A stretch of 64,000 bases of DNA, taken from Marsupella aquatica (lineage: Eukaryota; Plantae; Marchantiophyta). How positions within the stretch are numbered: the stretch's first letter is position 1; each line of letters starts with the position of its first letter. The notes under the pieces are model-generated. The model was given only the letters and a program-made list of their open reading frames with translations. It did no database searches and was not told the DNA's origin. The stretch is from positions 11,468,771-11,532,770 of the forward strand of contig OZ316891.1 of the NCBI GenBank assembly GCA_973895155.1, in the 5' to 3' direction. The translations under genes and the position numbers were made by a program. Below are positions 45,001-60,600 of this stretch, piece by piece.

Positions 45001-46735
45001 GAGGTGGTACATGATGATAAGTCAATAATTATGTCTGAAGTACTCAAGTACTTAGAGATATGATGGTAATCAGTTACTGATGGTGGGCCTGTACCTGAAG
45101 GTACCTTACTCTGGTACAGGAGTGGTGCTAAGGGGATTGTGTGGGCCTAAGCCAGTTTTTTGTCCTTTTTTTTTGAACAACTTCTTACTAATAACCTGTC
45201 CCCCACATTACCTGAATTTACTAAGGTATCCCCCAAACTAATTTGTTACTTACCTCATCTCCATTTCATATGTAGGTTAGCAATGCCCCAGTAGACATAA
45301 CTCAACCTCTGTCCTCATTAGTGTATGTATGTCATTGCCATGTGGCAAGGCACCACTGGATGTGGGCTTGACCCGCCCATCTTGCCCATTCCTGTGCTCC
45401 GGTCAAAAGTTCGAGGCCAACAGCCAAAGGCTGGGACTTGGTGATCTTGAGGACCCTTGGGTGGTTCTTGGTGTTGCAATGCTCAATGATGTGTGCTTTG
45501 GCTATTTGGATCTGTTTATCTCTCTCTGTGCCCGTTCTTTGTCGTGACAGTCATTGCAATACATTGGGCACAGTGTTGTGTTTGAAAAAAGACAATTTTT
45601 CTTGGGTGTTTGAGGGGGGGGGGAGAAAGGCAACCCAAGTGTGGGTGAACAGGCCACTCATCCAGACCTACCACTTTGAAGGAAAACCTTAAAATTATAG
45701 AAAACCAAGCCCAAAACCAATGTGTTGCAACAGAGAATGAGAATTTGATGCCCCATGGATCACAAGGTTGATATTTGAAACTCCCATTGGGGAGATGTTA
45801 GGAGTAGATAAGCTACACTTGCATCAAATTGGCAGTAAATTTTGGCCATTTTGTTTGAGTTTTACACCATAAAATGCAGAGGGTTCAATTTCATTAGATT
45901 AATTTTATTGTTTTAATATGAAATATTTGGGTGTGTGTTTCTATGTCTCCTCCTTCTCCAGTTGCTTTGCAGGTGCAAACTAAAACTTATTTTATGACTC
46001 ATAGTCATCAAGTTATCGACCACCCAAAACATGGTCCATGGGAGTACTGTGTCCAACATGGTGGTCCATCCTGGTTTCAGTTTTGACAAAGTGAAGAAAG
46101 CAGCACAAAAGAAAAGGTTGGCATGAAAACTGCTTTAGCGACCAAATCAATGTTAAAAAGGTTTCCAAAGTCTCAAAAGCAATCATAACTAAGTGATGAG
46201 TTCAGTACGGGTATGTTGTCTTCATGCAGTTTGTTGCAAAGGCTCAATGGCTATGTAAAATATGCAAAGATTGAAAAGCGAGTGCGATGAGGGGTCCAGT
46301 AGTAAAGCGAGAAGAGTAGGGATGGGAAGGGAGGCCCATTCCAAAGAACAAGGACCATGGTGACACCAGCAGATTTGTAACAATTCTAGGACGGTACAGA
46401 ACTTGAAGTTTGGACAATAACATGTGACAGAACTATACTACTGCTCAGGAATCGTACACAACTTTCACCTTTGATCCAGGCGGGCTCAACATTTTTGGGT
46501 GATTTATCCACTCACAACTACCAAAAGGACTGCACTTCCCCTACAAAGGAAAAGTGCATTTTTGGAGCCCTACTTGCCTGTCTACTTGCCAAAAACTGAC
46601 TGATGGCCTAAATCTATTTACCTAATGAACCATCATGTTTATTTACTGCATTGCCACCCAAAGCCTAGAGTAAAGTGAAGCAATCACCAAGGTGCTTCTC
46701 CTGTAGTGCCCCCATTTGCCAGCATTTTGGTCAAT

Positions 46736-47455
46736 CAGCTTTTTACTAACCTGTCCCCAAAACTGAGCTAAATTACTAACCTACCCCCAAAATTATTTTA
46801 ACTGCTAGGTCGCCCTCCATATTGTATACATGGGTTACATTAACAGTTTTAGTTAACCCAGGGTGATTTCTCATTGGTGGACTTACATATTGGCTCCGCC
46901 TTACCCTGGCCAAGTTTATCCTCACTGGGCTATTCTTTCCCATTTGTTGAATGAGCCCTTCACCAAACAGGACTGGCCGTCCCCCTCTCGAGCTCTAAAT
47001 CACAATGACCCAGCTTGAATCAGGTGGTAGGCCCAAATGTGGGTTTGTTTAATACACATGGAAATATGTATACTGTTGGGGCCTCTTTCCTTCAGAAAAG
47101 TGGGAGTAGGGTGGATCATCAGGACCCAAGGAGCATCAGGCCCCTATGGAGTGTGGGACCCCATTTTTGAAGGGAAATTGCAGCACCCAGCCAAGGGGGT
47201 GGGGCCGCCCTGGTTGGTGCAATGCTTGTTCAAAAAATGGGAAAGAGCTAGCAGGGTGAGGGTAAGCTTGGCCAGGGTAAGGTGGAGCCAATAGCGCCTT
47301 GCCACATGTTAGTCCACCAATGAGAAATCACCCTGGGTTAACAAAAATGGTTAATGTAACATATACAATATGGGGGGCAAGCTAGCAATTAAAATAATTT
47401 TTGGGGGTAGGTTAGTAATTTAGCTCAGTTTGGGGGACAGGATAGTAAAAAGCTG
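46736..47455. mobile_element. Non-autonomous Mutator-like foldback element (MITE)
   Basis: ~200-bp TIRs (cagctttttactaacctgtcccc... / ...ggggacaggatagtaaaaagctg). 10-bp TSD tttggtcaat at 46726-46735 and 47456-47465. Confidence 0.92.
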
Positions 47456-49744
47456 TTTGGTCAATAAGCTGTCTTCCGAAGGTTGAGATATTGCTTATTT
47501 GTAACTAATCACTCTTATGAGATTGGGCAGCAAGTGCATCCTTTGCAAACTGTGTTGATGGCCTAAGGGAACCATTTTCTCCAACCTTGGATTTTGTGAA
47601 TGAACATTATTTATTCCTGTCAGGTCTTCCAAGTTGCCACATCACCTCAATTAAGGGCTGACTTGTTTCAAAATTCCCCACCACTTTCTCTATGGAGGGT
47701 GCCAATTATCCTCCTATTATGGTATTGTGGGTCGTCATTTGGCAATCGTGACATATCTGCAAAAAACCATTTCTTCAAGGGATTACTGTAGGGAAGATCA
47801 GGTATGCAGAAAAGTCAATATTATCTTCTTTCAAATTATAGCTCACTGCCATAAATAAGTTTTCTCAATTTAGTGTTTTACTAAAAATAATGTACACACT
47901 GATAAACCGTGTGAATTGTGTGAAATGTGGCCACATTGAGGTGAGTCTATTGTTATCTAGGCAAGGATCCAGGGTGATTTGAGTGTAGTCTAAGTTGAAC
48001 TACTCAGGATTCAAAGAGTGGCTGAAGCTATGCAAGAGGGTTGGGATGTGCTGTGCTCTACCTTACCTGCAGTTCTGCTGGAGCAAAATGAGAGAACCAG
48101 AACAACACAATTTGAGTTCACACCACTACCCCACAAACTCAACCAGAGTTTCATGAGTCAATTTGTCTCACTGCCAAGTTTATGGTTACTCATTTGGCAA
48201 GCTTAACAGCAGTGATCATGTTTCATTTCACCTCGCGTGGTTCTTTAAAGTATAACTCTATGGACTGAGATTTAATATTTATTCATTGCCCTAATCAGAT
48301 GGTTCCTGTGCCATAGTGCCATCTCTGCTTGTGCAATAAATATAACTATTAGAAATTTTGGGCTCAAATAACCAAGCGAAGATCAAAACATAATGGTTGT
48401 CCTTATGAAAGTTGGAAAGAATTTGTCACAAAAAGTTCAAGAATATTTGAAGCATCCAGGTGAAGCTACTTGTCAGTGTATACATTTTTAAAACTAAAGA
48501 AAGGAGAACTGACAGGAGAAATATATTAGGAAAGTTAGTAATGCTTGGATGGATCACTCCCACTAACTCTACCACCCGGATGACCAAATTACTCTTGATC
48601 ATAAAAGTATGATATTTCACAAAAGAAATCTGCTATCTGAGTGCATACACAAGAGGTTTTTTTGGCAGTCAATTTGGGTTCTGCTAGTCCATTTGGCATT
48701 TTCCCAGACATTTAGGTCACTTGGGGCTTCAGTTTCAATATTTCCTCAGTGTGCTGGGAAGTTTTGGGGTGAGGCAAGTCCTAGCACAGCTAAGGCATTC
48801 AATCTAGTAACTAATACTTTGCAAGACTGACATGCTTTCAGGTGAGGCAAAAGGTGGGGAAGGCAACTGTGAGCCTTGCAAAGCTTGGGAATTCAGGTTG
48901 GTAGTTTATATCTCACAAAGGTCATGAGCAAATCATTGTAAACCTTAAGGTTTTTCTTTTTTGCAGGTATGGTAAAGGTCACCTTGTGTGAATGAGGAGA
49001 TGGTGGGAATATTAGTTATCTAATCTTACTAGATTACTTTCTCACCAACAGATCTCCCTAGTTTTGACCCCACTGACCTAGTTGATGGACCGAAACAAAA
49101 AACCTAGCCAATTGCAGTCAAAAGTTGAGAAGATTTTGTAACGAGGTGGGTTCCCCGGTGGGTCTAGTGAAGTTTTGCCACTACATGAACTTTTGCATGA
49201 ACCACAACAATGGTAGTGTAGATTGAGCTGCCTGTGAACCTGTATGGACTGCAACACTACCGGAACACTACCTTTTCTGAATCTGCCATGTAGAAATCTT
49301 ACTTTGCAAAGAAATACATTTTTTCTGGTCAACAACAACCTTGTCCATCCGGGTTACAAGGTTTGTGGGAATGGTCCATCCAAGCATTAGTATCATGTTT
49401 CTGGCCTTACCTCATTCCCTAAGATGTTTTTTTTTAAATGGCATTACTGTGGGGATCCATGGGGCTGAAATGGATTTTGTCATGTAAAGACTAAGAAACA
49501 TGACTCACATGGCATAGGGCCAATGTGAAATCATTATTCTGCAAAGAAAGGAAACACTGGACTGGACTGCATTGAGTAGAAATGGTCACTCAACTGTAAC
49601 CTTTCTTCCGTACAAAAGTGACTGTGGTAGTAGGGAGTCTCAAACCTGACAGGCCACAAAACATTCCCCAGCCGGAAAGTATCAGGTTTGCAAGGCGGTT
49701 GAGTGGTAAACCAAATATTTGCAAGTTTGCCACTTTCCAGAAAA

Positions 49745-50471
49745 AAACATGCTTGACCAGGAGCACCACCAAAACGCAGTGGTTTGAGATGTCCCATAGG
49801 AGAGACCATTTGAGTTCCAGGTAAACCTGCTTGACCATGACCACCACCAAAACCAAGAGGTTTGAGATGCACCATAGGAGAGGCCATTTGAGTTCGGGGA
49901 AAACCTGCTTGACCATGACCTCCACCAAAGCCCAGAGATGTCCTATAGGAGAGGCCACTTTAGTTTCAGGAAACCTGTTTGACCATGACCTCCACCAAAG
50001 CCCAGAGATGTCCTATAGGAGAGGCCACTTTAGTTTCAGGAAACCTGTTTGACCATCACCTCCACCACAACCCAGAGGTTTGAGATTCCCCATAGGACAG
50101 GCCACTTTAGTTTTGGGAAAACCTGCTTGACCATGACCTCCACCAAAATCAAGAGGTTTAGATGACCCATAGGAGAGGCCACTTTAGTTCCGGGAAAACC
50201 ACCCGAGAGGTTTGAGATGCCGGGAAAGAAGGGCGTCTCAAACCTTGGAGTTGCGGGAAAAAAATGATGCCCGAAACTATCAGTTTTGGTCACAATTCAG
50301 GGGTGTGTAGACACGGATTTGCGTGTCACGGGAAAAAAACGATGCCCTATCAGTTTTGGTCACAGTTCAGGGGTGTGCAGACACAGATTTGCGTGTCCGC
50401 CACTTTTTTCCTGGGAATCCATCAGTGACTCCGACTGGAGGCAGCAAAGAGAAGTTTGAGACGCCTTATAA
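49745..50471. repeat. Minisatellite of 70-78-bp units (continues at 55350-55450 after the Harbinger) plus a separate 70-bp duplication at 50279-50397
   Basis: aaacctgcttgaccatgacc.ccaccaaa...gaggtttgagatg.cc.ataggagaggccactttagtt starts at ~49745, 49823, 49901, 49971, 50041, 50119 and 55377. Confidence 0.92.
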
Positions 50472-51119
50472 GAGCATCTCCAACGCTGACGGGGTGTCTT
50501 TACGCTATACCTTTAATACAGCGCAATGGCCCAGCTATTATTGGGATGCGCTATATGCTTAACGGGGTTTGTCAGAATGCAACCCCGCTGGTTACGGGAT
50601 AGTTTCCCTGCGCTATATGACATGGACACGCGTTACTTTATTGGCGAGGCACGTGGTCATCTGTGGTGCTTTCGCTCCCAAAAATTCAGGGTGTCTACTC
50701 TCTGAAGGCAATGCGCAAGCTTGCACCAGCTTGCGCGTTGGACATACTTCCGTTGACCTCTTGCTGCCATGAATTCTCACATCCAATTTCACAAATTTGC
50801 GCTCCTCTGTGCCCTGGCCTTGGCCTTTTGCTCTTGAACGCGCAAGTCTGTGCAATTGAATCCGTCCATCTCTCGAGAGTTTCGGCTGATATTGCTCCAT
50901 GAAATCAATGGCACACTTTTTTAAAGTCGTGGGTGGGTTGATACATTGGCACGAAATCGTAGTGGATTTCAACAATGTGCAATTGTTGATCGGAAAATGT
51001 GTATATGATAGGCCTCGCCTGCAAATGGAAATTGACACCCTCGCTACATCATCCTTTTCTATATGGTCGAACACAAATTCTCATTTTTTTCATCCTTCTG
51101 GACATTCTCTGTGTTCCAT

Positions 51120-52439
51120 ATGGAACGTGCTCAATTTGAACAATGGACAGCTGATCGGGCATTGTCTGATGATGACATTGAAGATGTCCTTGCTGATCAC
51201 ATCACCCAACTGCTTGAAGAAAGTGACATGCTGGAAGAGATGTCCGATGTCTTGAATCGAACACACGGAGGTTCGACAATTGGCCGCTCCCCAAACATAT
51301 TTTGTGATCATGTTGTAGGCCACGATCGAATTTGGGGAGATTACTTCTCACAGTTTGCAGCATTTCCACCTCACTTGTTCAGGAGGCGGTTTCGGATGAG
51401 AAGGCAACTCTTTATCCGCATTCACAATAAGATTCTCCCTGAAGATCATTACTTTGTGCAGAGGCCCGATGCTGTTGGGAAACCAGGCCTCAGCAGCATC
51501 CAAAAAATGACAGCAGCTTTGCGGATGATGTGCTATGGTTCAGCAGGGGATGCAGTGGATGAATATGTCAGGATTGGAGAGTCTACCGCCATATCTGCCT
51601 TTAAGCACTTTGTGGAAGCTATTGTGAATTGCTTTGGAGACGAATACCTTCGGCATCCTATAGAGGAGGATGTACGAAGGCACATGGAGATCAATCGAAA
51701 GTGAGGCTTCCCAGGAATGTTTGGGTCCCTAGATTGCACTCACTGGACATGGAAGAATTGCCCAGTGGGAGAGCAAGGCCAATTTCGAGACAAGGATGGT
51801 TTAAATTCAATTGTCCTTGAAGCAATTGCAACCTCAGACCTCTGGATATGGCATGCCTTTGCTGGTATTCCTGGATCTAATAATGACATCAATGTCATTG
51901 ATAGATCTCCACTCTTGGTAAACTTGTTGAATGGGGTAGCTCCAAATGTTACGTTTTCTGTGAACGGCCATGAGTACAAAATGTTCTATCTCTTGGCCGA
52001 TGGCATCTACCCTGACTACACCATCTTTATGAAAACCATACCCGATCCTCAAGGGGCGAAGAGGAAATGGTATGCCAAGCGACAAGAGTCAGTGCGGAAA
52101 GATGTGGAGCGATGTTTTGGTGTGCTTCAAGCCCGGTTTGCAATGGTGAAGAACCTTGCACGATGGTGGAGTTGAGATCAGATGCAATTGATATGGAAAG
52201 CAACAGTGATTTTACACAACATGATCATTGAGGACGAGGTAGACGAACTTGAGTTGACACAAGATTATTTGTTTGAGAGGAATGAGGCTCAGTGGCAGCA
52301 CAGGCCACGACCTCCACTGACATTTGCAGGGCTGACACACAATGTGGAATTGATTGCCAACGCTGAAAGAGCTCATCAACTGAGGGAGGATCTGGTAGAA
52401 CATTTGTGGCAAATCAGAAGTGAAGAAGACGAGGAGTGA
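51120..52439 (+). pseudogene. PIF/Harbinger DDE transposase (ALP1/HARBI1-like) with two in-frame TGA stops
   Basis: One frame throughout: FRRRFRM, GLSSIQKMTAALRMMCYG, *GFPGMFGSLDCTHW, SNNDINV, LADGIYP, RKDVERCFGVLQARF, ILHNMIIEDE, HQLREDLVEHLW. Stops at 51702-51704 and 52173-52175. Confidence 0.95.
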
Positions 52440-52959
52440 TTTAGTGATTAGCAGCTGATAGAGTTCAGCCTGGTACGAGTCCTTGGATAGGATACCATTT
52501 TATTTTCTCAGAAAGCTCTGTTTGAGCAATGTACCCTAAATTGTGGAACTGAATTCAAAGCCCCGGTTCGATCAATGCGTATGGAATTAAGGTTGGAATC
52601 TTCCCCTTCTCTTTCCCTATCACATGTGGTGGCCATTGGACTCGCACAAGCGATGCTGAAAGGTAACCACACAATTAATTGCAATTCGTGTGTGTACAAC
52701 GTCTAGTACCCACACAATACATTCAACGGTACACAGCTTTGGTATTCACGTCTTCACACAGTCTCACACAGTCTTGTGAGGCAGATTCTTAAGCCTTTGA
52801 CAACGCACCTCTGTATTCCTGAATCCCAATGCGGGTTCCCGTCTCCCTGAGGGTCCACCCACAGCGCTCGTCCATCACCATCTCCTTTGATTCTCTGAGT
52901 TCAACATCTCCATTTCCTTGAGGCAAGCTATTTGGCCTATATCCTCAATTTTCTGCACT

Positions 52960-53439
52960 ATGGCAAGGCCAAAGGTTGTGATTAAAAGACATGGCAAGCA
53001 TGTCTCCAGCTCGAGTGGTGCAAACGTGATTATGTTGTCATCAAGCGATTCCGAAGACGTTGCTCCTGCTACCACACCATCTTCACAACATGTGGAGGAG
53101 GGCAGCTCATCCCAGGCTCGGTCGAGCCTTCCCATAGTGGCACCCGTTGTTGGCGAGGGCAGGGCTGTGCGAGCAAGAGCTGTGACTCCGGCCCCGGTAG
53201 TGGCACCACAGGTACCAGCAAATGTAGCCCCACCATTGCAAGAGGAGTACTACGTTCCAATTGTCCCAAGACCGAAGTTCAAGGCTCAAAGGAAGGCACG
53301 AGCTATTGTTCGATTTGAGCTCGAGAAAGAGGAGGAGAGAGAGAAGGATTGGAGGGACAATCCTTCCAACTTGTCTTCTGACTCGGAGGATGGCGAACTC
53401 GATTCCAGTGGCTATAGATGGGAGTGGCCATCTCCCTGA
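52960..53439 (+). CDS. Uncharacterised third ORF inside the Harbinger element (159 aa, mostly disordered-looking)
   Basis: Intact ATG ORF in actATGGC context with protein-like organisation: basic N-terminus, S/acidic patch, P/V/A-rich linker, charged helix and acidic-aromatic tail. Confidence 0.65.
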   Translation: MARPKVVIKRHGKHVSSSSGANVIMLSSSDSEDVAPATTPSSQHVEEGSSSQARSSLPIVAPVVGEGRAVRARAVTPAPVVAPQVPANVAPPLQEEYYVPIVPRPKFKAQRKARAIVRFELEKEEEREKDWRDNPSNLSSDSEDGELDSSGYRWEWPSP

Positions 53440-53754
53440 GGATTCATACTCTGCAGATGATGTGCAAGGAGTTGGCCATGTTTTTTAGTACCGTAGGGAT
53501 CGATAGAGCTCGGCAGTGTTTGGCCCATAAGCTCCATTGCACACAAAATTATGATGCGACAATCATGGTTGCAAACACTTAGCAATTTGTAGACACAGTG
53601 TGGTTCTTCAAAATAGGAGGAAATGTGGATACATTTGCAATGCAATATAAAAATGGCAGTCTGTATTCTTGAATTCAATCATGTACATTGCCCCAGGCAT
53701 GAGTCACTCTATTCAATGCCCTGACATTGCTTGCTATTTGATTGTCTGGTAGAA

Positions 53755-54915
53755 CTACATGAAGCTGTATAAATTGGTAACGTCTTGGTACTGGATGGAG
53801 GTCTGCGGATAGGCCTCCATCCATGGCTGACTTTCATTGTGCATGGGCGTTTCGCTTTCGCCACCAACTGAATTGTGGGTGTCCTCTCCAACCGGAGGCG
53901 AGTCTTCCAGGTCTTCAACATCTTCACCATCTTCTTCCCCGTCCTCCCCTTCATCGCCATGGAATTGATTGGTACTGCCCTCTCTATGTGTTCGAAATGG
54001 TGGCACATTCTCTTGGTCTTGCATTGTCCTGGTGAGGGACACAGATCCCTTCCTCAAGGGTTCCACTGATTTGAGTTGCTTCATGAGCTGCAGCTCTGCC
54101 ACCTCCCTCTTCTTTCTCAAAAAATTTTGTGCCTGCTCATCGAGGTTTCCCATGTTCACTGAAAACAATTGGATTTCATACACATCCTCCATGGCTCGAG
54201 CTCTCCGATTTAATGCAGCTGCAATTGCAGACGTCGATTCTGCCAATGAGCTCTTGTTCTTCAATGCCTTTCTCTCCAATGCAGCCAACTCTTTAGCTTT
54301 TTTGTTACCAATCGGGCGATCGGTAACCATCTCAGGTGTAGCACTCTCTTTCGTGGGGCTATCATCATCGGCCAAATCGATTGCTTCGCTTTCTGCATCT
54401 CGGGAATTTTTGGCCTTCTTCCGCTTGGAGGCTCGCTCGAGATGCTTGTCGTTCAATCGTGCTGCAACCTGCCACTTTGGAGAATCCTTCAGGATTTTCC
54501 AGGCGCCATCCATAGTAAACTCTAGGCCCTTCTTGTGAGTTTGCTGGTAAAGTGCCTTCGCCTTCTCCATTTGCTCCTCTTCGTTTGTGCCAGACTCATT
54601 CAGCTCAATGATTGTTGACATGGCTCCGGTAAACTTTGCACAATCATGGTTGATCTCGCTCCATTTCGATCCCAATGAGCGAATCGACCTTGGGACGTTC
54701 TTCACGACACCTGGGAACTTCCTCCTGAATTCAGACATGGCTTTCGTGAAATGGGCCTCAATCTTGGTCCAGTACACATCAGACTTCTGTTGGGCTCCCA
54801 CAGCTGAGCAATTGCTGCATGCAAGCCACGATCGCGCAATTTGCTCAATCTCAATGTTTGAGAAATTGGCCTGTTTCTTGCCCTTGCCCTTGGCAGACAC
54901 ATCCACTGGAGCCAT
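53755..54915 (-). CDS. Harbinger Myb/SANT-like DNA-binding protein with NAM-associated domain, 386 aa, intact
   Basis: NFSNIEIEQIARSW...VGAQQKSDVYW...RSIRSLGSKWSEINHDCAKF, ESGTNEEE..AKALY, FTMDGAWKILKDSPKW and RPIGNKKAK are typical of PIF ORF1. ATG at 54915 in aacATGGC context. Confidence 0.93.
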   Translation of the reverse strand: MAPVDVSAKGKGKKQANFSNIEIEQIARSWLACSNCSAVGAQQKSDVYWTKIEAHFTKAMSEFRRKFPGVVKNVPRSIRSLGSKWSEINHDCAKFTGAMSTIIELNESGTNEEEQMEKAKALYQQTHKKGLEFTMDGAWKILKDSPKWQVAARLNDKHLERASKRKKAKNSRDAESEAIDLADDDSPTKESATPEMVTDRPIGNKKAKELAALERKALKNKSSLAESTSAIAAALNRRARAMEDVYEIQLFSVNMGNLDEQAQNFLRKKREVAELQLMKQLKSVEPLRKGSVSLTRTMQDQENVPPFRTHREGSTNQFHGDEGEDGEEDGEDVEDLEDSPPVGEDTHNSVGGESETPMHNESQPWMEAYPQTSIQYQDVTNLYSFM

Positions 54916-55679
54916 GTTGGGAGATGCCTGCAAAATTGCCAGAGGGAGCACAGGAAACCTACCCAATCAACACTTGAAGTTTCAGAACGCACGCTTGGAA
55001 AACGTGTATTTGCCATCCCCAATTGTTGTAGAGTGGAATCTCGAGTCGAAGCGGGAAACGCTTCAGTTTGCATTTCGGGAGTTTCGCGCGGATGACCTCC
55101 TTCCCACACGGAGCACAGCCTTTCCACAACCGTCAGATCGTGATCTGGATAAACCCCGTCGAGGGCCAAATTATACAGTCAATGCGCTATGCGAGGCAAA
55201 CTTTAGCGTTTGCGTAAGCTGAAACCCCGTATGCGGGATGTGCGATAGCGTTAGCGGCAATCCGTTGGGCTTGGTTTTTTCCCTCTGTCTTACGGGGTTT
55301 GGTTAAGATAGCGTTAGCGTAGCGGACCCAGCAACCGTTGGAGATGCTCTAAGAGTGGCCACTTTAGTTCCGGGAAAACCTGCTTGACCGAGACCACCAC
55401 CAAAAACGAAGAGGTTTGAGATGCCCTAGATAGGGGAGAGGCGACTTGAGGTGGACCGGGGTCATTCAGCACGAGGGAACAAAAAGAAGCACGAGGGAAC
55501 AAAAGAAGCACGACGGCACACAGGTACACAGCTCACGCAGCTTGTCCTTCTGCTCCGACTTCAACAGCTCAAAGCCTCAAAGTGAACGTTCCTCCAGAGC
55601 TGTTGGGTATGGTAGGATGAGGCTGTCGCACTGAAAATTCTGGCTGGCGGTCAAGTCCGTCAGGCAGCTGGTCAAATTC

Positions 55680-57678
55680 GTAAGCTTCCCTGCGGCCGCC
55701 GGTCAATTGGCCTCGAAGCTTCGTGGTCGGAGACCCTCGAATGCTCGAGTGTAAGCAACTCGGAAGCTACAGCTGAAGCCACCCAACAAACGCAACGCAA
55801 CGCAACGCAACGCAGCAAGCACTGTTGCTGGCTGAGTGCGCCTTCCTCTCTCCATCCTCTCCACCGTTTCTTCTTCGAGGCTTCGCTCTCCCCAACCTCC
55901 GCGTTTCGGGCTTGCGGCAGCTTTTCTCGCCAATCTGCTATGCTGCTCTGTCTCGTTTCGTCACTTCCCACCAATCTGCTCTGCTCCGTTGCTCTGTCTC
56001 TTTTTCGTCCCTTCTCACCAATCTGCTGCCGCTGCTGGCTCTGCCTTTCTGTCCGCCTCGTCGTCTGTTGGTTCTCCTTTCTAAATAAGTCAGTGAGAAG
56101 GTGAGGCCGAGAGCCGAAGGCAGCGGAGCGAATCGGGTCTGTCTTTGCTGGTGCCGCAGCTGCTCTTGCTCATTATCATCATTGTTAATATCATCCACTG
56201 CAGGGAAGGAAGGAGGGAAGAGAGGACGGACGGACGGACGGACGGGCGGGAGGGCTAGAGTGGAGCAGTGTGGTTGCTATTGATTGAATGACCTGCCGGT
56301 GTTCTTCTCTGCTGGAGTGCAAGTGTGGGGAGAAGTAAAGGGAACGAACTGGACTGGAGGAGTTGAGTTTGGAGGAGGGGCGACAGATAGGCAAAAGGGC
56401 AGGTACTGTAGTTCTATTAATCAGGAAGTTGTCGAGTGGGGGTTGTGGATGAATGAATCAGTTGACCGATGTACACGGTGCAAACGGTGCTGCTTCCACG
56501 TTTGGGTTTGGCTCCTGCGTATTTCCTCGAGGAACAGCGAAGCTTTGGATTTAGAGGACGACGATGGACTCGCATCTCTGACTACTTTTCACAGTCGTCA
56601 CCCTTGGCCTGCCGGGCGGCTGCTTCTACTACTGCCAATCCTCTCTCCTTCGTTGATTTGAGGTCTGTCTTATCTATCAACACCCCCCCCCGCATCTCTT
56701 CCTTTCTCTGTGCCCCTTTTCTCTCTGTGTCCTGTGCGTGTGTGCGTGTGTACGTGTGTCTGGGCTGCAGCGGTGGTTTCTGAGTCTCGTTGCGTTCCCA
56801 CTTCAATGTCGCTGGGTGGTTAGATTTTGGCCTTCTCGTAGTCCCTGCCTGCCTTCACTCGATTGATGTTACTTCGAAGGTTTTTGTGAGGCCAGTTTTG
56901 CTCTTGCCGCTGGGGACTAGTTTCGAGACCTCCCCCTCCACGCGAAAGCTCCCAACTTCGGTCAACTTATACTCTTGCCTTCCTCTTTCGAGCTCTTATT
57001 TTCCATTCGCAACAATTCGAAAATATCGCTTCCATTAGGCTATTGTGATGACGGAGCCGTCATCTGCTGGAGAACCCAGGTTGGTATATAAGGAGGACTC
57101 CAGGAGGGCCCCTTGGAGCGTTTGGCCAATTTGACCCATACGGATTGGAGGTGTTTGGTCTGAGTCGAGCTTAGAACGCTGGTTGGTGGGTTGGACTTGA
57201 CACAACCAGGTTGAGGCTTCTGGGTTGAAGCTTCTGGTGACCTGAGCCTTTGGAAACGGGCCTGGAAATTGCTGATATGTGAAACTGAGACTTAAAGTGG
57301 GAGTCTACAATTTTATTGTACTTAGCTCGCCCTTAACTCCCCGGAACACCGAGAGGGAGGAGGCGAGCAAAATTGTGGGCAAAGGTACTCATTTTACGGG
57401 TTTCTGCACAGAGCAAAATTCGGGCTCCTCCTTCTCCAGAGACTTACACCTCTTCTCCAATTTTTCAGAGGACTTCAATTGACTCAGAGTGGGATTAAGG
57501 GGCCGTTCAAGAGTATCTGTATCGAGCTGGGCGTTCTCCGTGCTGTTGCTGCCGGTGCTTCACTTTCGTAGCTGAAGTCTGGTTGTACGGAGGAGAAGAA
57601 AATTGAACGTCAAGTTTTTAGCTCGTTTCTGGGAGGTGAAAGAGCTGCCTTGTGCATGTGTACTGTTCCGTGGCAGCC
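55680..57678 (+). promoter_or_regulatory. Putative CAMTA promoter and long 5' leader
   Basis: CpG-rich with CT-rich tracts, (CAACG)n and (GGAC)n microsatellites, and CCGCGT at ~55899. It lies directly upstream of the CAMTA ATG. The TSS was not determined. Confidence 0.5.
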
Positions 57679-60600
57679 ATGACTGCCGGCAGTCGACGTG
57701 GTAATATGGCGCCGCAGCCCGGTATGAATACTGTCCACTTTTTAATGTCAGCGTGCCACATGCTCAACGAATTTTATGACACCGCTTCGACCAATTGGGG
57801 GCCAGAGATTTTTGCTCAGTCGGTTTTGGTGGATGAAAGAGGGTTCATATATTAGTCAGGTGTCATCGAAGGTTATGTCTGACTTAATGATCACAAGAGC
57901 TGGGCTTGTTGGCTTTCGAGGTTGTCACTTCTGTGCAGTGTACGGTTTCTGTGGCCTGTTGCCGCGTGTCTCTTGTCCATCTTGGCGTTTGCAGTGGATT
58001 GACTTTACACATTTGATGTGTCTTCAGAGGTCGACATACGTCAAATTATTCAAGACGCTCAGAATAGGTGGCTCCGGCCTGCGGAAGTATGTGAGATTTT
58101 GCGTAACTACAAGCTGCACAATTTTAAGCTGAATCCAGTGCCACCCACAACTCCTCAAAGTAAGTAATTAAGTCAAAGTCTTGGGTTCTTTTTCTGGGAG
58201 AGAAATGGAGATAATCCTTCTTGAGAACAACTTTCAAGACAATCCAGTAGGGTGGATGATGTTGTAACCTCAAGGGCTTTTCGTTGTTAGCATTCTCATG
58301 TGTCTGGCACTAGTATCAGATTTAGCACTGTGTGTACTTTGTTCGCAGTAGTTAAGTTGATGAGCTACTTTTATTCGCGATTACCTTTCGAAGAGGTTCT
58401 GAGAAGACGCTGTTGTACTTTTTGGTTCTATTCAGGTGGCTCTCTGTTTCTTTTTGACCGAAAAACTCTCCGATATTTTCGGAAAGATGGCCACAACTGG
58501 CGCAAGAAAAAAGACGGGAAAACTGTCAGAGAGGCTCATGAACGCTTAAAGGTAGAAGTCCCTGTCCCCCATATGGACTGCTTCAAAATAACAGATTCTT
58601 CTCTTTTCCTAGCTTGTTATGGTGAGTGTTGGATTTCGCTGTAGACGCTTGATGGAACCATTTGATAGGACGATTATCCAAGTCAATGTGGAAATTCCTG
58701 CTACTTCGTAATACAGGATATTCTGTTCTCCGAATTTTATGACCAGGGCTTCTAACTTCAAGATGCTTTGGTGTACAGGCAGGGAGCATCGATGTGCTTC
58801 ATTGCTATTATGCACATGGAGAGGACAATCCAAATTTTCAAAGGCGAGCATACTGGATGCTTGATCCGTAAGTATCCAAGTACGTGAACCTCCGCTAATT
58901 GGACTTTCAGGGTCGTCCAGATGGTGAGGAGTGGGAAGTAGAGGAAGTAGTCTGGAATCATAGCTCAAAGAAGAAGTAGATGGAAATCAGCAGTGTGTCA
59001 GGGTACAAATGAAGATATTGATCTTTGGATCGGTCAAGTTTTCCATTATTTTTGTTCTCGGCGAGGGCTTTTAATTCAGCGAGTGTCAAGTCTGATTTAC
59101 AATCAGCGTTCAATCCTAGCACGGAATTGTGGGAAGGTAAACATTCGCTTGAAATATGAGTTCAGTCTTGAGTTTCTTTAGGGATGTGATGAGAGCTTAA
59201 GTTGTGAACAACTAATCAATTTTTCCCCTGGTTTAGATGTTGAAACTTTTTGTCAGGACGGTTTTTGAAGTTTCCAACAAATTTATCTCGGACTCCATTT
59301 GATAGTCTTTGTATGTGTTTTTTTGGTGCAGTGCATATGAGCACATTGTCCTCGTTCATTACAGAGAAGTAACTGAGGTAGGTGTGCTTCCTTCTTTCTA
59401 GGCATGCCAGGGCCATTTATAATACACATCTTTCGTCAGTTCTTCTTCGAAGTGCGTTCTTGACGGTGTGGAGCTTTTCCAGGGGCATCGACTGTGTATA
59501 CGCAACGTGCATGGTTACGGTACGACTGAGACAACGTCAAATGCTGGGAGTCTTCACCCATTGCCTACTCAGCTACCTCCGTTTGGACCCAGCAGTGTGA
59601 ATTCTCTGAGTGGTCCAACTTCCATCCCTAGTCCAGATACAGTAGAGATGCCAGGAAGTTCCCATTCACCAGAGTTAGAAGATGTGGACTCAGCAGAACC
59701 AGAGGAATTGGAAGAGGCAGTTGCGGAAATTGCTGGCGATCCTACTAGTTTGCAACCATCACTGTTGGAGCAGCTGACAGACCGTCAACACGTAGCACCT
59801 ATTCAGTCTTGGCAATCAGGGGGTTTAAGGAACACTAATAGCCTCGGGGGTATTGATGGGCCGGTGAACCCACATTTGTTTCCACCTCAGAAAGACTTTA
59901 AGCCACAATTTACTGATTTACAGAACCTTTCACAGCGAGCGCCTCCGATATCGAGTCGGTATCGAACTGGAGATGTGAATACTTTAAGTCGCTTTGCAGA
60001 TATACTCGACAGTCCAGGTGGGGCATTGAGCCTGTTTCTTTGTCATCGCTGCTTTTGGCATAGCACGTAAAATCTAGAACTTTGCATATCATTCTGTGCA
60101 TTTCTTGTGATCATGATGTGTAGAAATTTTCACTGGTTTTGTAATTTTTCATAATCTTCCGCCACGGACGTTCAGACGGTGATTGGTCAAATGTGCATTT
60201 CCTCGTTCCAGAGAAGTACATTGATGATTACTGACATCTATACGTTGTCTATACAGGAACTTCTTACAATCTTCCACAGTCTTCTTCATCAAATTTGGAT
60301 CTGTCAGGGTGGACTAATCTTCTGGAAAATGGCCGAGGGAGTGGGGGACTGGGAAATGGCGGCGGAAATTTTGTGAAGTCTGAGTTGAACAGTCCCTCCG
60401 GTCCCTCTCCTTGGGAAGCAATGTTAGTCCAGGTCACTACTCCTAACTCTAGGAGGAATCTTCTTCAAGGAGCAGGATTGAATCCTGGGCTTGGCCAGTC
60501 CCCTCTTGGAAAAGATCAATCTCACACAATGGGCGCAGATCTTTCACCCAAAGGAAAGGGAATTGTAGATGCATTGTCACCCAGAAATTTAGGTCGGGAG

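What the first reader, a model, noticed from the sequence alone, without database searches (positions are those of the whole stretch)
52960..53439. Extra intact ORF in a PIF/Harbinger element with an H3-tail-like N-terminus and SIM-like motif: candidate transposon-encoded chromatin or anti-silencing factor
Established: canonical PIF/Harbinger elements carry two genes (DDE transposase and Myb/SANT). Seen: a third intact 159-aa ORF lies between them, in strong ATGGC context. After Met removal it begins A-R-P-K-V-V-I-K-R, compared with histone H3 A-R-T-K-Q-T-A-R-K, so A1/R2/K4 match and positions 8-9 are basic. It also has VIMLSSSDSED (hydrophobic core plus phosphorylatable acidic tract, a SIM-like pattern), a basic patch (PRPKFKAQRKAR) and an acidic/aromatic tail (SSDSEDGELDSSGYRWEWPSP). 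Inference: it could be a histone-mimic or SUMO-binding accessory protein that modulates silencing or targeting of the element, analogous in role to VANC proteins of VANDAL Mutators. The motifs are short, so this is speculative.
Basis: partly seen in the sequence, partly recalled or inferred. Interest (0 to 1): 0.78.

Follow-up and report, generated by a model that had tools for sequence, protein, structure and literature searches.

The report
Third gene in liverwort Harbinger transposon
A jumping-gene family, likely from a leafy liverwort, carries between its two standard genes a third reading frame with no known relatives, which likely encodes a small, floppy nuclear protein whose histone-like start and SUMO-binding-like patch would help the element deal with host chromatin.

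Summary
The ORF is real (52960-53439, 159 aa). It lies in a 4,878-bp PIF/Harbinger element with a TAA duplication and TIRs, between a broken transposase and an intact partner gene; best partner hits are Calypogeia fissa.

For a gene: codon periodicity (p 0.001). Sister copies under 90% alike carry it, three keep a stop at the same codon, similarity falls to about 50% right after the stop, and the one widely shared indel is in frame.

Against: 11 of 40 listed sister substitutions are synonymous, the neutral rate. Five single copies are frameshifted, no homologue was found, and expression could not be tested.

M-A-R-P-K meets the published H3 N-terminal mimic motif (48 of 20,996 human proteins). 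The SIM-like core looks conserved (P 0.03, post hoc). The protein is predicted to be disordered with one helix, unlike VANC.

Verdict: likely a third, fast-evolving accessory gene; the chromatin role is untested. Harbingers with extra chromatin genes are known (HarbingerS, PHISTA). The scan noted third genes in vertebrate Harbingers, but found no look-alike of this DNA.

The parts
50469..50471 (+). Left target-site duplication TAA
   Evidence: The flanks rejoin as one unit of a 78-bp repeat (family D1).
50472..50495 (+). Left terminal inverted repeat (first 14 bp perfect)
   Evidence: (I10, 84% over 25 nt)
51063..52439 (+). DDE transposase (PF04827 Plant_tran / PF13359), broken by two in-frame TGA codons at 51702 and 52173
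   Evidence: E 6.8e-67
52440..52959 (+). Spacer: inferred promoter and leader of the third gene
   Evidence: No codon periodicity (p 0.63); role inferred from position
52663..52922 (+). Possible leader intron (inferred, weak): AG|GT donor at 52663, pyrimidine tract, AG at 52921-52922
   Evidence: 70% pyrimidine over 52876-52922 and donor list. Three sister loose-end rows covering the site have YAG where the window has GAG (table 7, read by eye; row 52920). No RNA data.
52960..53439 (+). Third ORF, 159 aa, orphan, predicted mostly disordered
52960..52974 (+). N-terminal M-A-R-P-K, matching the iM-Z-R-x-K H3 N-terminal mimic motif
   Evidence: definition in PMC8166343; conservation in sisters not readable
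53026..53058 (+). SIM-like motif VIMLSSSDSED (aa 23-33)
   Evidence: A pattern built on this motif occurs in 1.3% of 20,000 residue shuffles, a loose pattern in 16%. No listed substitution in VIML; one Ser is deleted in frame and D30 is N in some sisters.
53266..53358 (+). Basic patch (aa 103-114, NLS-like) running into the only predicted helix (aa 107-133)
   Evidence: pLDDT 89 over aa 111-130. Q110 is R in most sisters. A patch this basic occurs in 7.9% of shuffles.
53374..53436 (+). Acidic/aromatic tail (aa 139-159)
   Evidence: sister similarity ends at the stop codon (table 7)
53755..54915 (-). Intact partner gene (386 aa, PF14303; the Myb/SANT-like ORF1 position of Pong/PIF elements), tail-to-tail with the transposase
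   Evidence: (E 1.7e-15). A Myb fold was not confirmed.
55326..55349 (-). Right terminal inverted repeat
55350..55352 (+). Right target-site duplication TAA

Best explanation
The middle ORF is likely a third gene of this Harbinger family, encoding a small, predicted disordered nuclear adaptor that would contact host chromatin factors through short motifs and so likely ease silencing of the element or steer it. Shown: the frame, its place between the two standard genes inside the TIRs, its codon periodicity, and its presence in diverged sister copies, three of which keep the same stop position. Inferred: it has its own promoter in the 520-bp spacer, possibly with a leader intron. After Met removal the free A-R-P-K end would dock in H3K4-type reader pockets (PHD, Tudor, CW). 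The VIML-plus-serine/acid block would bind SUMO once phosphorylated. The basic patch would act as a nuclear localisation signal, and the charged helix as a dimerisation or partner surface. Having no folded DNA-binding domain, it would need the element's own ORF1 protein or sumoylated chromatin to reach the element. The linkers between motifs would evolve almost freely.
For: Coding signal: base composition differs by codon position (chi2 22.0, p 0.0012; p 0.005 against 5,000 stop-free random frames). The four non-coding stretches give p 0.34-0.63. The codon score in its own frame is 0.168, against at most 0.078 in the 29 other frames scored. No Cys and 22 Asp/Glu (P 0.009 and 0.007). Family-borne: 75 and 61 contigs lay on it in runs X2 and X4, of which 22 and 23 are under 90% alike. 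Boundary at the stop: 6 of the 7 'behind' loose-end rows shown break off at 53435-53440 (4 distinct sequences; 14 of 32 rows shown). Three of the four keep a stop at codon 160, one as TAG instead of TGA. Ungapped identity over the next 30 nt is 13, 15 and 17 of 30 (read by eye), against 81% before the stop in the TAG record (P 5e-6 to 2e-3). The only indel shared by several contigs is an in-frame 3-nt deletion (about half of local depth in three of four runs). SIM block: 1 of 12 listed changes in 37% of the length (P 0.03). MARPK meets the iM-Z-R-x-K definition, held by 48 of 20,996 human proteins and enriched for chromatin binders (PMC8166343, passages). VIMLS resembles the MOM1 SIM VVCLS shown to bind SUMO in two-hybrid tests (PMC6084981, passages). 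Harbinger lineages with extra chromatin genes exist (PMC12730594, passages).
Against: No amino-acid-level selection in the readable data: 11 of 40 listed substitutions are synonymous against 25.6% expected (P 0.45); ratios are 0.92, 0.81 and 0.78 (40 of 123 rows seen). Five frameshifting events and one nonsense change occur, each in a single contig; only 3 of 8 indel events keep frame (P 0.11-0.53). K9 and I8 change in 7-8 contigs, and D30 is N in 4. No homologue among 5.8 billion proteins or 1.84 billion representatives, although Calypogeia fissa ORF1 relatives at 50-54% are in the collection. The motifs were picked after the fact; Ala2 partly follows from the ATGGC start context; a loose SIM pattern occurs in 16% of shuffles. 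PMC8166343 found no in vivo K4 methylation of its mimics, and PMC6084981 found the MOM1 and PIAL2 SIMs dispensable for silencing. A possible splice acceptor before the ATG leaves open that the true N-terminus lies upstream.
Confidence: 0.4

Rival explanations
1. It is a real accessory gene but acts on the transposition complex, not on chromatin marks. It would bind the transposase or ORF1 through its helix and aid import, assembly or integration, as MURB does for MURA. The N-terminal and central basic stretches are only localisation signals.
For: The same coding and boundary evidence. One confident helix. Transposase-accessory protein interactions are documented for MULE, CACTA and PIF/Harbinger (PMC12973397, passages). 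The H3 likeness beyond K4 is not kept.
Against: Three distant tail-to-tail relatives (L001, L002, L015) have only about 245, 40 and 110 nt between the two genes, so this element type exists without a third gene. The apparent conservation of the SIM core is not explained.
Confidence: 0.25
2. It is a once-coding fragment, captured from a host gene or another transposon long ago and now carried neutrally. Periodicity is inherited, and the motifs are those of the donor or of S/D/E-rich low-complexity sequence.
For: Synonymous share equals the neutral rate. Single-copy frameshifts. The middle third diverges beyond the 80% threshold in one bridging contig (table 5). CpG depletion (0.59) resembles the neighbouring genes (0.51, 0.61), which fits long passive residence as well as function.
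Against: A neutral passenger should not stay open for 159 codons across lineages up to 19% apart, nor lose similarity exactly at the stop codon while keeping the stop. No donor was found. It has a complete start context and stop.
Confidence: 0.22
3. The ORF is the last exon of a longer spliced gene whose coding start lies upstream in the spacer, so the protein does not begin with A-R-P-K and the histone likeness is accidental.
For: Pyrimidine tract and AG at 52921-52922, YAG in three sister rows. The frame is open 23 codons upstream of the ATG. Of 11 donor candidates, 2 extend the frame (172 and 211 aa).
Against: Both extending donors are weak. The best donor (52663) leaves the 159-aa frame unchanged. 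Of 12 listed changes at 52841-52947, most fall on codon position 2 of the ORF frame (read by hand). The upstream spacer has no periodicity.
Confidence: 0.08
4. It is a chance open frame in a G+C-richer spacer.
For: 1-3% of shuffles give such an ORF, and a genome holds many such spacers. No homologue.
Against: Periodicity and residue bias exceed stop-free random frames (P 0.005-0.011). The stop is kept in sisters.
Confidence: 0.05

Closest known systems
Canonical two-gene PIF/Harbinger (Pong-like) elements (PMC4482050, passages read)
   Same: TWA target duplication, short TIRs starting with G, DDE transposase plus a second gene, about 5 kb.
   Different: A 1,315-bp spacer holding a third coding frame; three distant tail-to-tail relatives have 40-245 nt there.
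HarbingerS (SET methyltransferase, Phytophthora) and PHISTA (TET/JBP, rust fungi) (PMC12730594, passages read)
   Same: Harbinger-superfamily elements carrying an extra gene linked to chromatin marks.
   Different: Their cargo is a folded enzyme. Here it is a 159-aa orphan with no domain, in a land plant, beside both standard genes with a 3-bp TAA duplication.
VANC of VANDAL Mutators (PMC5735166, abstract and passages read)
   Same: Fast-evolving, element-encoded accessory protein; proposed role in countering silencing.
   Different: VANC has conserved domains (DUF1985, DUF287) and binds DNA motifs that often form tandem repeats in the element. This ORF has no Pfam hit and is predicted disordered. 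The element holds only 16-26-nt micro-repeats.
H3 N-terminal mimicry proteins such as VRK1, BCL11B, PCLAF (PMC8166343, abstract and passages read)
   Same: iM-Z-R-x-K start on a disordered N-terminus.
   Different: Those are human host proteins with binding shown in vitro. This one is transposon-encoded, in a plant, with nothing tested.
HDP1/HDP2, domesticated Harbinger proteins in the Arabidopsis IDM anti-silencing complex (PMC5339849, abstract read)
   Same: Harbinger-derived proteins acting against silencing in plants.
   Different: They derive from the two standard genes and are host genes, not a third gene of a mobile family.

Membership tests
PIF/Harbinger | 3-bp TWA target-site duplication | tested here: met
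   TAA at 50469-71 and 55350-52
PIF/Harbinger | Short terminal inverted repeats beginning with A or G | tested here: met
   14 bp perfect, 84% over 25 nt
PIF/Harbinger | DDE transposase of the family | tested here: met
   PF04827 E 6.8e-67 and PF13359 E 3.3e-9; broken by two stops in this copy
PIF/Harbinger | Second gene with a Myb/SANT domain | tested here: inconclusive
   Intact PF14303 gene whose relatives sit beside transposases in 6 of 17 loci. No Myb Pfam hit, a low-confidence model with three N-terminal helices, no fold match.
H3 N-terminal mimic (H3TM) | iM-Z1-R2-X3-K4 at the very N-terminus | tested here: met
   M-A-R-P-K against the definition in PMC8166343, provided ATG 52960 is the true start
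H3 N-terminal mimic (H3TM) | Motif conserved across the family | tested here: inconclusive
   No listed substitution in codons 1-7, but these lie within about 30 nt of the ends of most aligned pieces, where changes appear not to be listed. One contig has a 1-nt deletion in codon 5. Codons 8-9 change in 7-8 contigs.
H3 N-terminal mimic (H3TM) | Binds H3K4 readers or is methylated at K4 | not testable with these tools
   Needs peptide pull-downs
SUMO-interacting motif (phospho-SIM type) | Hydrophobic core flanked by serines and acidic residues in a disordered region (consensus recalled; MOM1 VVCLS from PMC6084981) | tested here: met
   VIMLSSSDSED, coil in the model; core without listed change
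SUMO-interacting motif (phospho-SIM type) | Binds SUMO | not testable with these tools
   No SUMO sequence was available to the complex tool; needs two-hybrid or pull-down
VANC anti-silencing proteins | DUF1985/DUF287 conserved domains | tested here: not met
   0 Pfam families at E up to 1; disordered model
VANC anti-silencing proteins | Sequence-specific loss of methylation over own element | not testable with these tools
   Needs transgenic assay
Functional transposon accessory gene | Purifying selection across sister copies | tested here: inconclusive
   11 of 40 listed changes synonymous, ratios 0.78-0.92, against a kept stop, an in-frame shared indel and periodicity
Functional transposon accessory gene | All copies lie inside Harbinger TIRs | not testable with these tools
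   No genome held; no listed contig spans the element
Functional transposon accessory gene | Transcribed | not testable with these tools
   No RNA holder listed; this says nothing either way

The most novel reading that the evidence does not exclude
A plant DNA transposon encodes a true histone H3 tail mimic joined to a SUMO-binding motif. This small decoy or adaptor would take H3K4 readers and sumoylated silencing factors away from, or onto, the element. It would be an anti-silencing device built only from short linear motifs, a strategy known from animal viruses and not reported for a transposon in the papers my searches reached.
Probability: 0.15. Interest if true: 0.85.

Novelty: new variant of a known kind. 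Interest (0 to 1): 0.5.

Why it matters
Proven anti-silencing proteins of plant transposons are few; PMC12973397 calls the evidence confined to context-specific cases. Plant Harbingers are described as two-gene elements. A third, motif-only gene in a liverwort family would add a new kind of accessory factor and gives two cheap, sharp tests: N-terminal peptide binding to H3K4 readers, and VIML binding to SUMO. If the motifs fail, what remains is a three-gene Harbinger variant of modest interest.

Tried and rejected
No genome is held for this window, so full-length sister elements could not be aligned, and the window has no second copy.

Homologue searches for the ORF gave nothing:
- 0 of 213 and 0 of 2,672 candidates.
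- 2 hits among 1.84 billion representatives, both PD40 beta-propeller repeats matching aa 14-48 and rejected as chance.
- ESM Atlas, whole protein and aa 92-159: no usable hit.
- PDB sequences: best E 0.27.
- Metagenome contigs: 0 of 591 stretches confirmed.
- No tblastn hit at E up to 1 in the 17 loci found with the partner gene.
- Exact sequence not in the collection.

Sequencing runs: no RNA holder listed. Complex prediction of aa 92-159 with the partner protein: no answer, score 0.00, no evidence either way. The partner-protein model was low confidence and gave no fold match. Rfam: 0 matches over the element.

Contig depth was not used to rank parts or count copies. Other reading frames, including the antisense ORFs 52875-53249 and 53107-53484, were considered: no frame has a clear synonymous excess (7-14 of 40) and none has a comparable codon score. 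The ORF is not needed to complete either neighbour: the partner gene ends like its Calypogeia relative, and the transposase frame has its own stop at 52439.

Papers PMC7998251 and PMC4423477 (passages) were not relevant. Literature searches for a third ORF in plant Harbinger/Pong elements, or for transposon SIM or histone mimics, listed none like this. Most hits were seen as listings only. Repbase Reports and subscription journals are not in the library, and no supplements were read; Repbase entries or supplements could hold a three-ORF plant Harbinger.

Full report
Observation. It lies in a 4,878-bp element (50472-55349) with TAA on both sides and TIRs whose first 14 bp are perfect. The element sits inside a 78-bp repeat whose unit continues across the insertion. 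The left gene is a PF04827 transposase (E 6.8e-67) broken by two TGA codons. The right gene, on the - strand, is an intact 386-aa PF14303 protein. Its best relatives are two Calypogeia fissa proteins at 54% and 50% identity, so the host is likely a leafy liverwort (inferred). I could not confirm a Myb fold for it.

Is the ORF more than chance? An ORF this long arises in 1.15% of 2,000 shuffles of the spacer, or 2.95% with local composition kept, which is suggestive only. The frame has codon periodicity (p 0.0012; p 0.005 against 5,000 stop-free random frames), while the four non-coding stretches give p 0.34-0.63. As controls, same-length windows of the partner gene give p of 2e-4 or lower, but transposase windows only 0.11-0.22, so the test is not sensitive for every gene. 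A codon score trained on the element's two other genes is 0.168 in the ORF frame and at most 0.078 in 29 other frames.

Sister copies. No genome is held, so I laid contigs of four public runs from two studies; one of them may be the window's own source. On 52940-53460, 10, 75, 5 and 61 contigs were laid, of which 3, 22, 0 and 23 are under 90% alike. The segment is therefore a family feature and not a capture unique to this copy. No listed contig links the ORF to a TIR.

The 3' boundary is informative. Of 7 'behind' loose-end rows shown (14 of 32 rows in all), 6 break off at 53435-53440, representing four distinct sequences. Three keep a stop at codon 160, one as TAG; the fourth would run 7 codons further and has a net 4-nt loss in its middle. 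Ungapped identity over the next 30 nt is 13, 15 and 17 of 30 (read by eye), against 81% before the stop in the TAG record. The aligner picks clip points where identity falls, and only 21 nt beyond the stop were laid, so these P values overstate the case.

Indels: all 11 rows were shown. They reduce to three in-frame events (3, 3 and 12 nt) and four frameshifts, five with the joint above. The only event shared by several contigs is in frame (about half of local depth in three runs), and each frameshift is in one contig per run. Dead copies are expected to decay like this, as this copy's transposase has. But 3 of 8 is not a significant excess.

Substitutions give no support for selection. Of 40 rows shown (of 123), 11 are synonymous, 28 change the residue and 1 makes a stop, against 25.6% synonymous expected. 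The ratios are 0.92 for all rows, 0.81 for the 26 rows in 3 or more contigs, and 0.78 for 22 rows after dropping four that are private to the window lineage. None differs from 1. Rows were scored one base at a time and include mutations after insertion.

Motifs. M-A-R-P-K meets the published H3 N-terminal mimic definition iM-Z-R-x-K, found in 48 of 20,996 human proteins. Seven of seven tested peptides bound H3K4me3 readers when methylated, but in vivo methylation was not found (PMC8166343, abstract and passages). Codons 1-6 cannot be judged, because most pieces begin at 52948-52955 and changes within about 30 nt of a piece end appear not to be listed (inferred from the from_end columns). The SIM-like block has 1 of 12 listed changes in 37% of the stretch (P 0.03, post hoc; VIML alone P 0.18). 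Sisters mostly have D before the core, and some lose one Ser or have N for D30. The core resembles the MOM1 SIM VVCLS, which binds SUMO in two-hybrid tests but is dispensable for silencing (PMC6084981, passages). The general SIM consensus is recalled. AlphaFold2 on the single sequence gives coil except for helix 107-133 and a short 135-138 turn (mean pLDDT 62, pTM 0.23).

A caution on the start. A 70% pyrimidine tract ends in AG at 52921-52922, and the three sister loose-end rows that cover it show YAG (read by eye). The best donor (52663) would make a leader intron and leave the protein unchanged. Two weak donors of 11 would add upstream codons and remove the free N-terminus.

Homologues and comparison. 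None was found. Of 17 metagenome loci found with the partner gene, 6 hold a transposase and none matches the ORF. The three tail-to-tail ones leave only about 245, 40 and 110 nt between the genes. Canonical elements have two ORFs (PMC4482050, passages). Extra chromatin genes are known in HarbingerS (SET) and PHISTA (TET/JBP) (PMC12730594, passages). VANC has folded conserved domains (PMC5735166, abstract and passages) that this protein lacks, so it is not a VANC family member, though it could work toward the same end. Nine paper searches listed no three-gene plant Harbinger and no transposon histone mimic, within the library's limits. Earlier scan notes report third genes in vertebrate Harbingers (unchecked), and no look-alike of this DNA.

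Mechanism and verdict. I put about 0.7 on a functional third gene (the first, second and fourth-ranked readings together). The best reading (0.4) is a disordered nuclear adaptor that meets host chromatin factors through its H3-like end and SIM-like block. Every step of that is inferred. Rivals are a transpososome helper (0.25), a neutrally carried old capture (0.22), a last exon of a longer gene (0.08) and chance (0.05). A working H3 mimic with anti-silencing effect gets 0.15. It is a new variant of a known kind; interest 0.5.

Noticed in passing
window 49744-50200 and 55350-55424: A 78-bp tandem repeat (6 copies, 84% matches) interrupted by the element; one more unit continues right after the right TAA. 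Contigs of runs X2 and X3 match the left junction with 0 differences.
   Followed up: partly
window 58291-58644 and onward (gene apparently starting near 58000): A CG-1 domain exon (PF03859, E 1.2e-18), likely a CAMTA gene, lies about 3 kb to the right of the element; its leader may begin near 55800.
   Followed up: partly
window 46720-47471: A 750-bp element that is almost one long hairpin (nested inverted arms of 45-80 nt, 75-93% complementary), likely a MITE or foldback element.
   Followed up: no
window 48536-49392: Inverted arms of 52 nt (79%) 753 nt apart, likely another MITE.
   Followed up: no
window 51637 to 54053: All four runs hold a contig that joins these places, an internally deleted derivative lacking the third ORF and half of the transposase (table 5, short side 27 nt).
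   Followed up: no
window 54361-54384 (- strand; partner protein aa 178-185): The partner protein has its own loose SIM-like stretch (AIDLADDD), so such motifs are not special to the third ORF.
   Followed up: partly
L002 289-2635: A compact tail-to-tail element with both genes intact (302 and 465 aa, PF14303 and PF04827) and a 40-nt gap; a possible two-gene control.
   Followed up: partly
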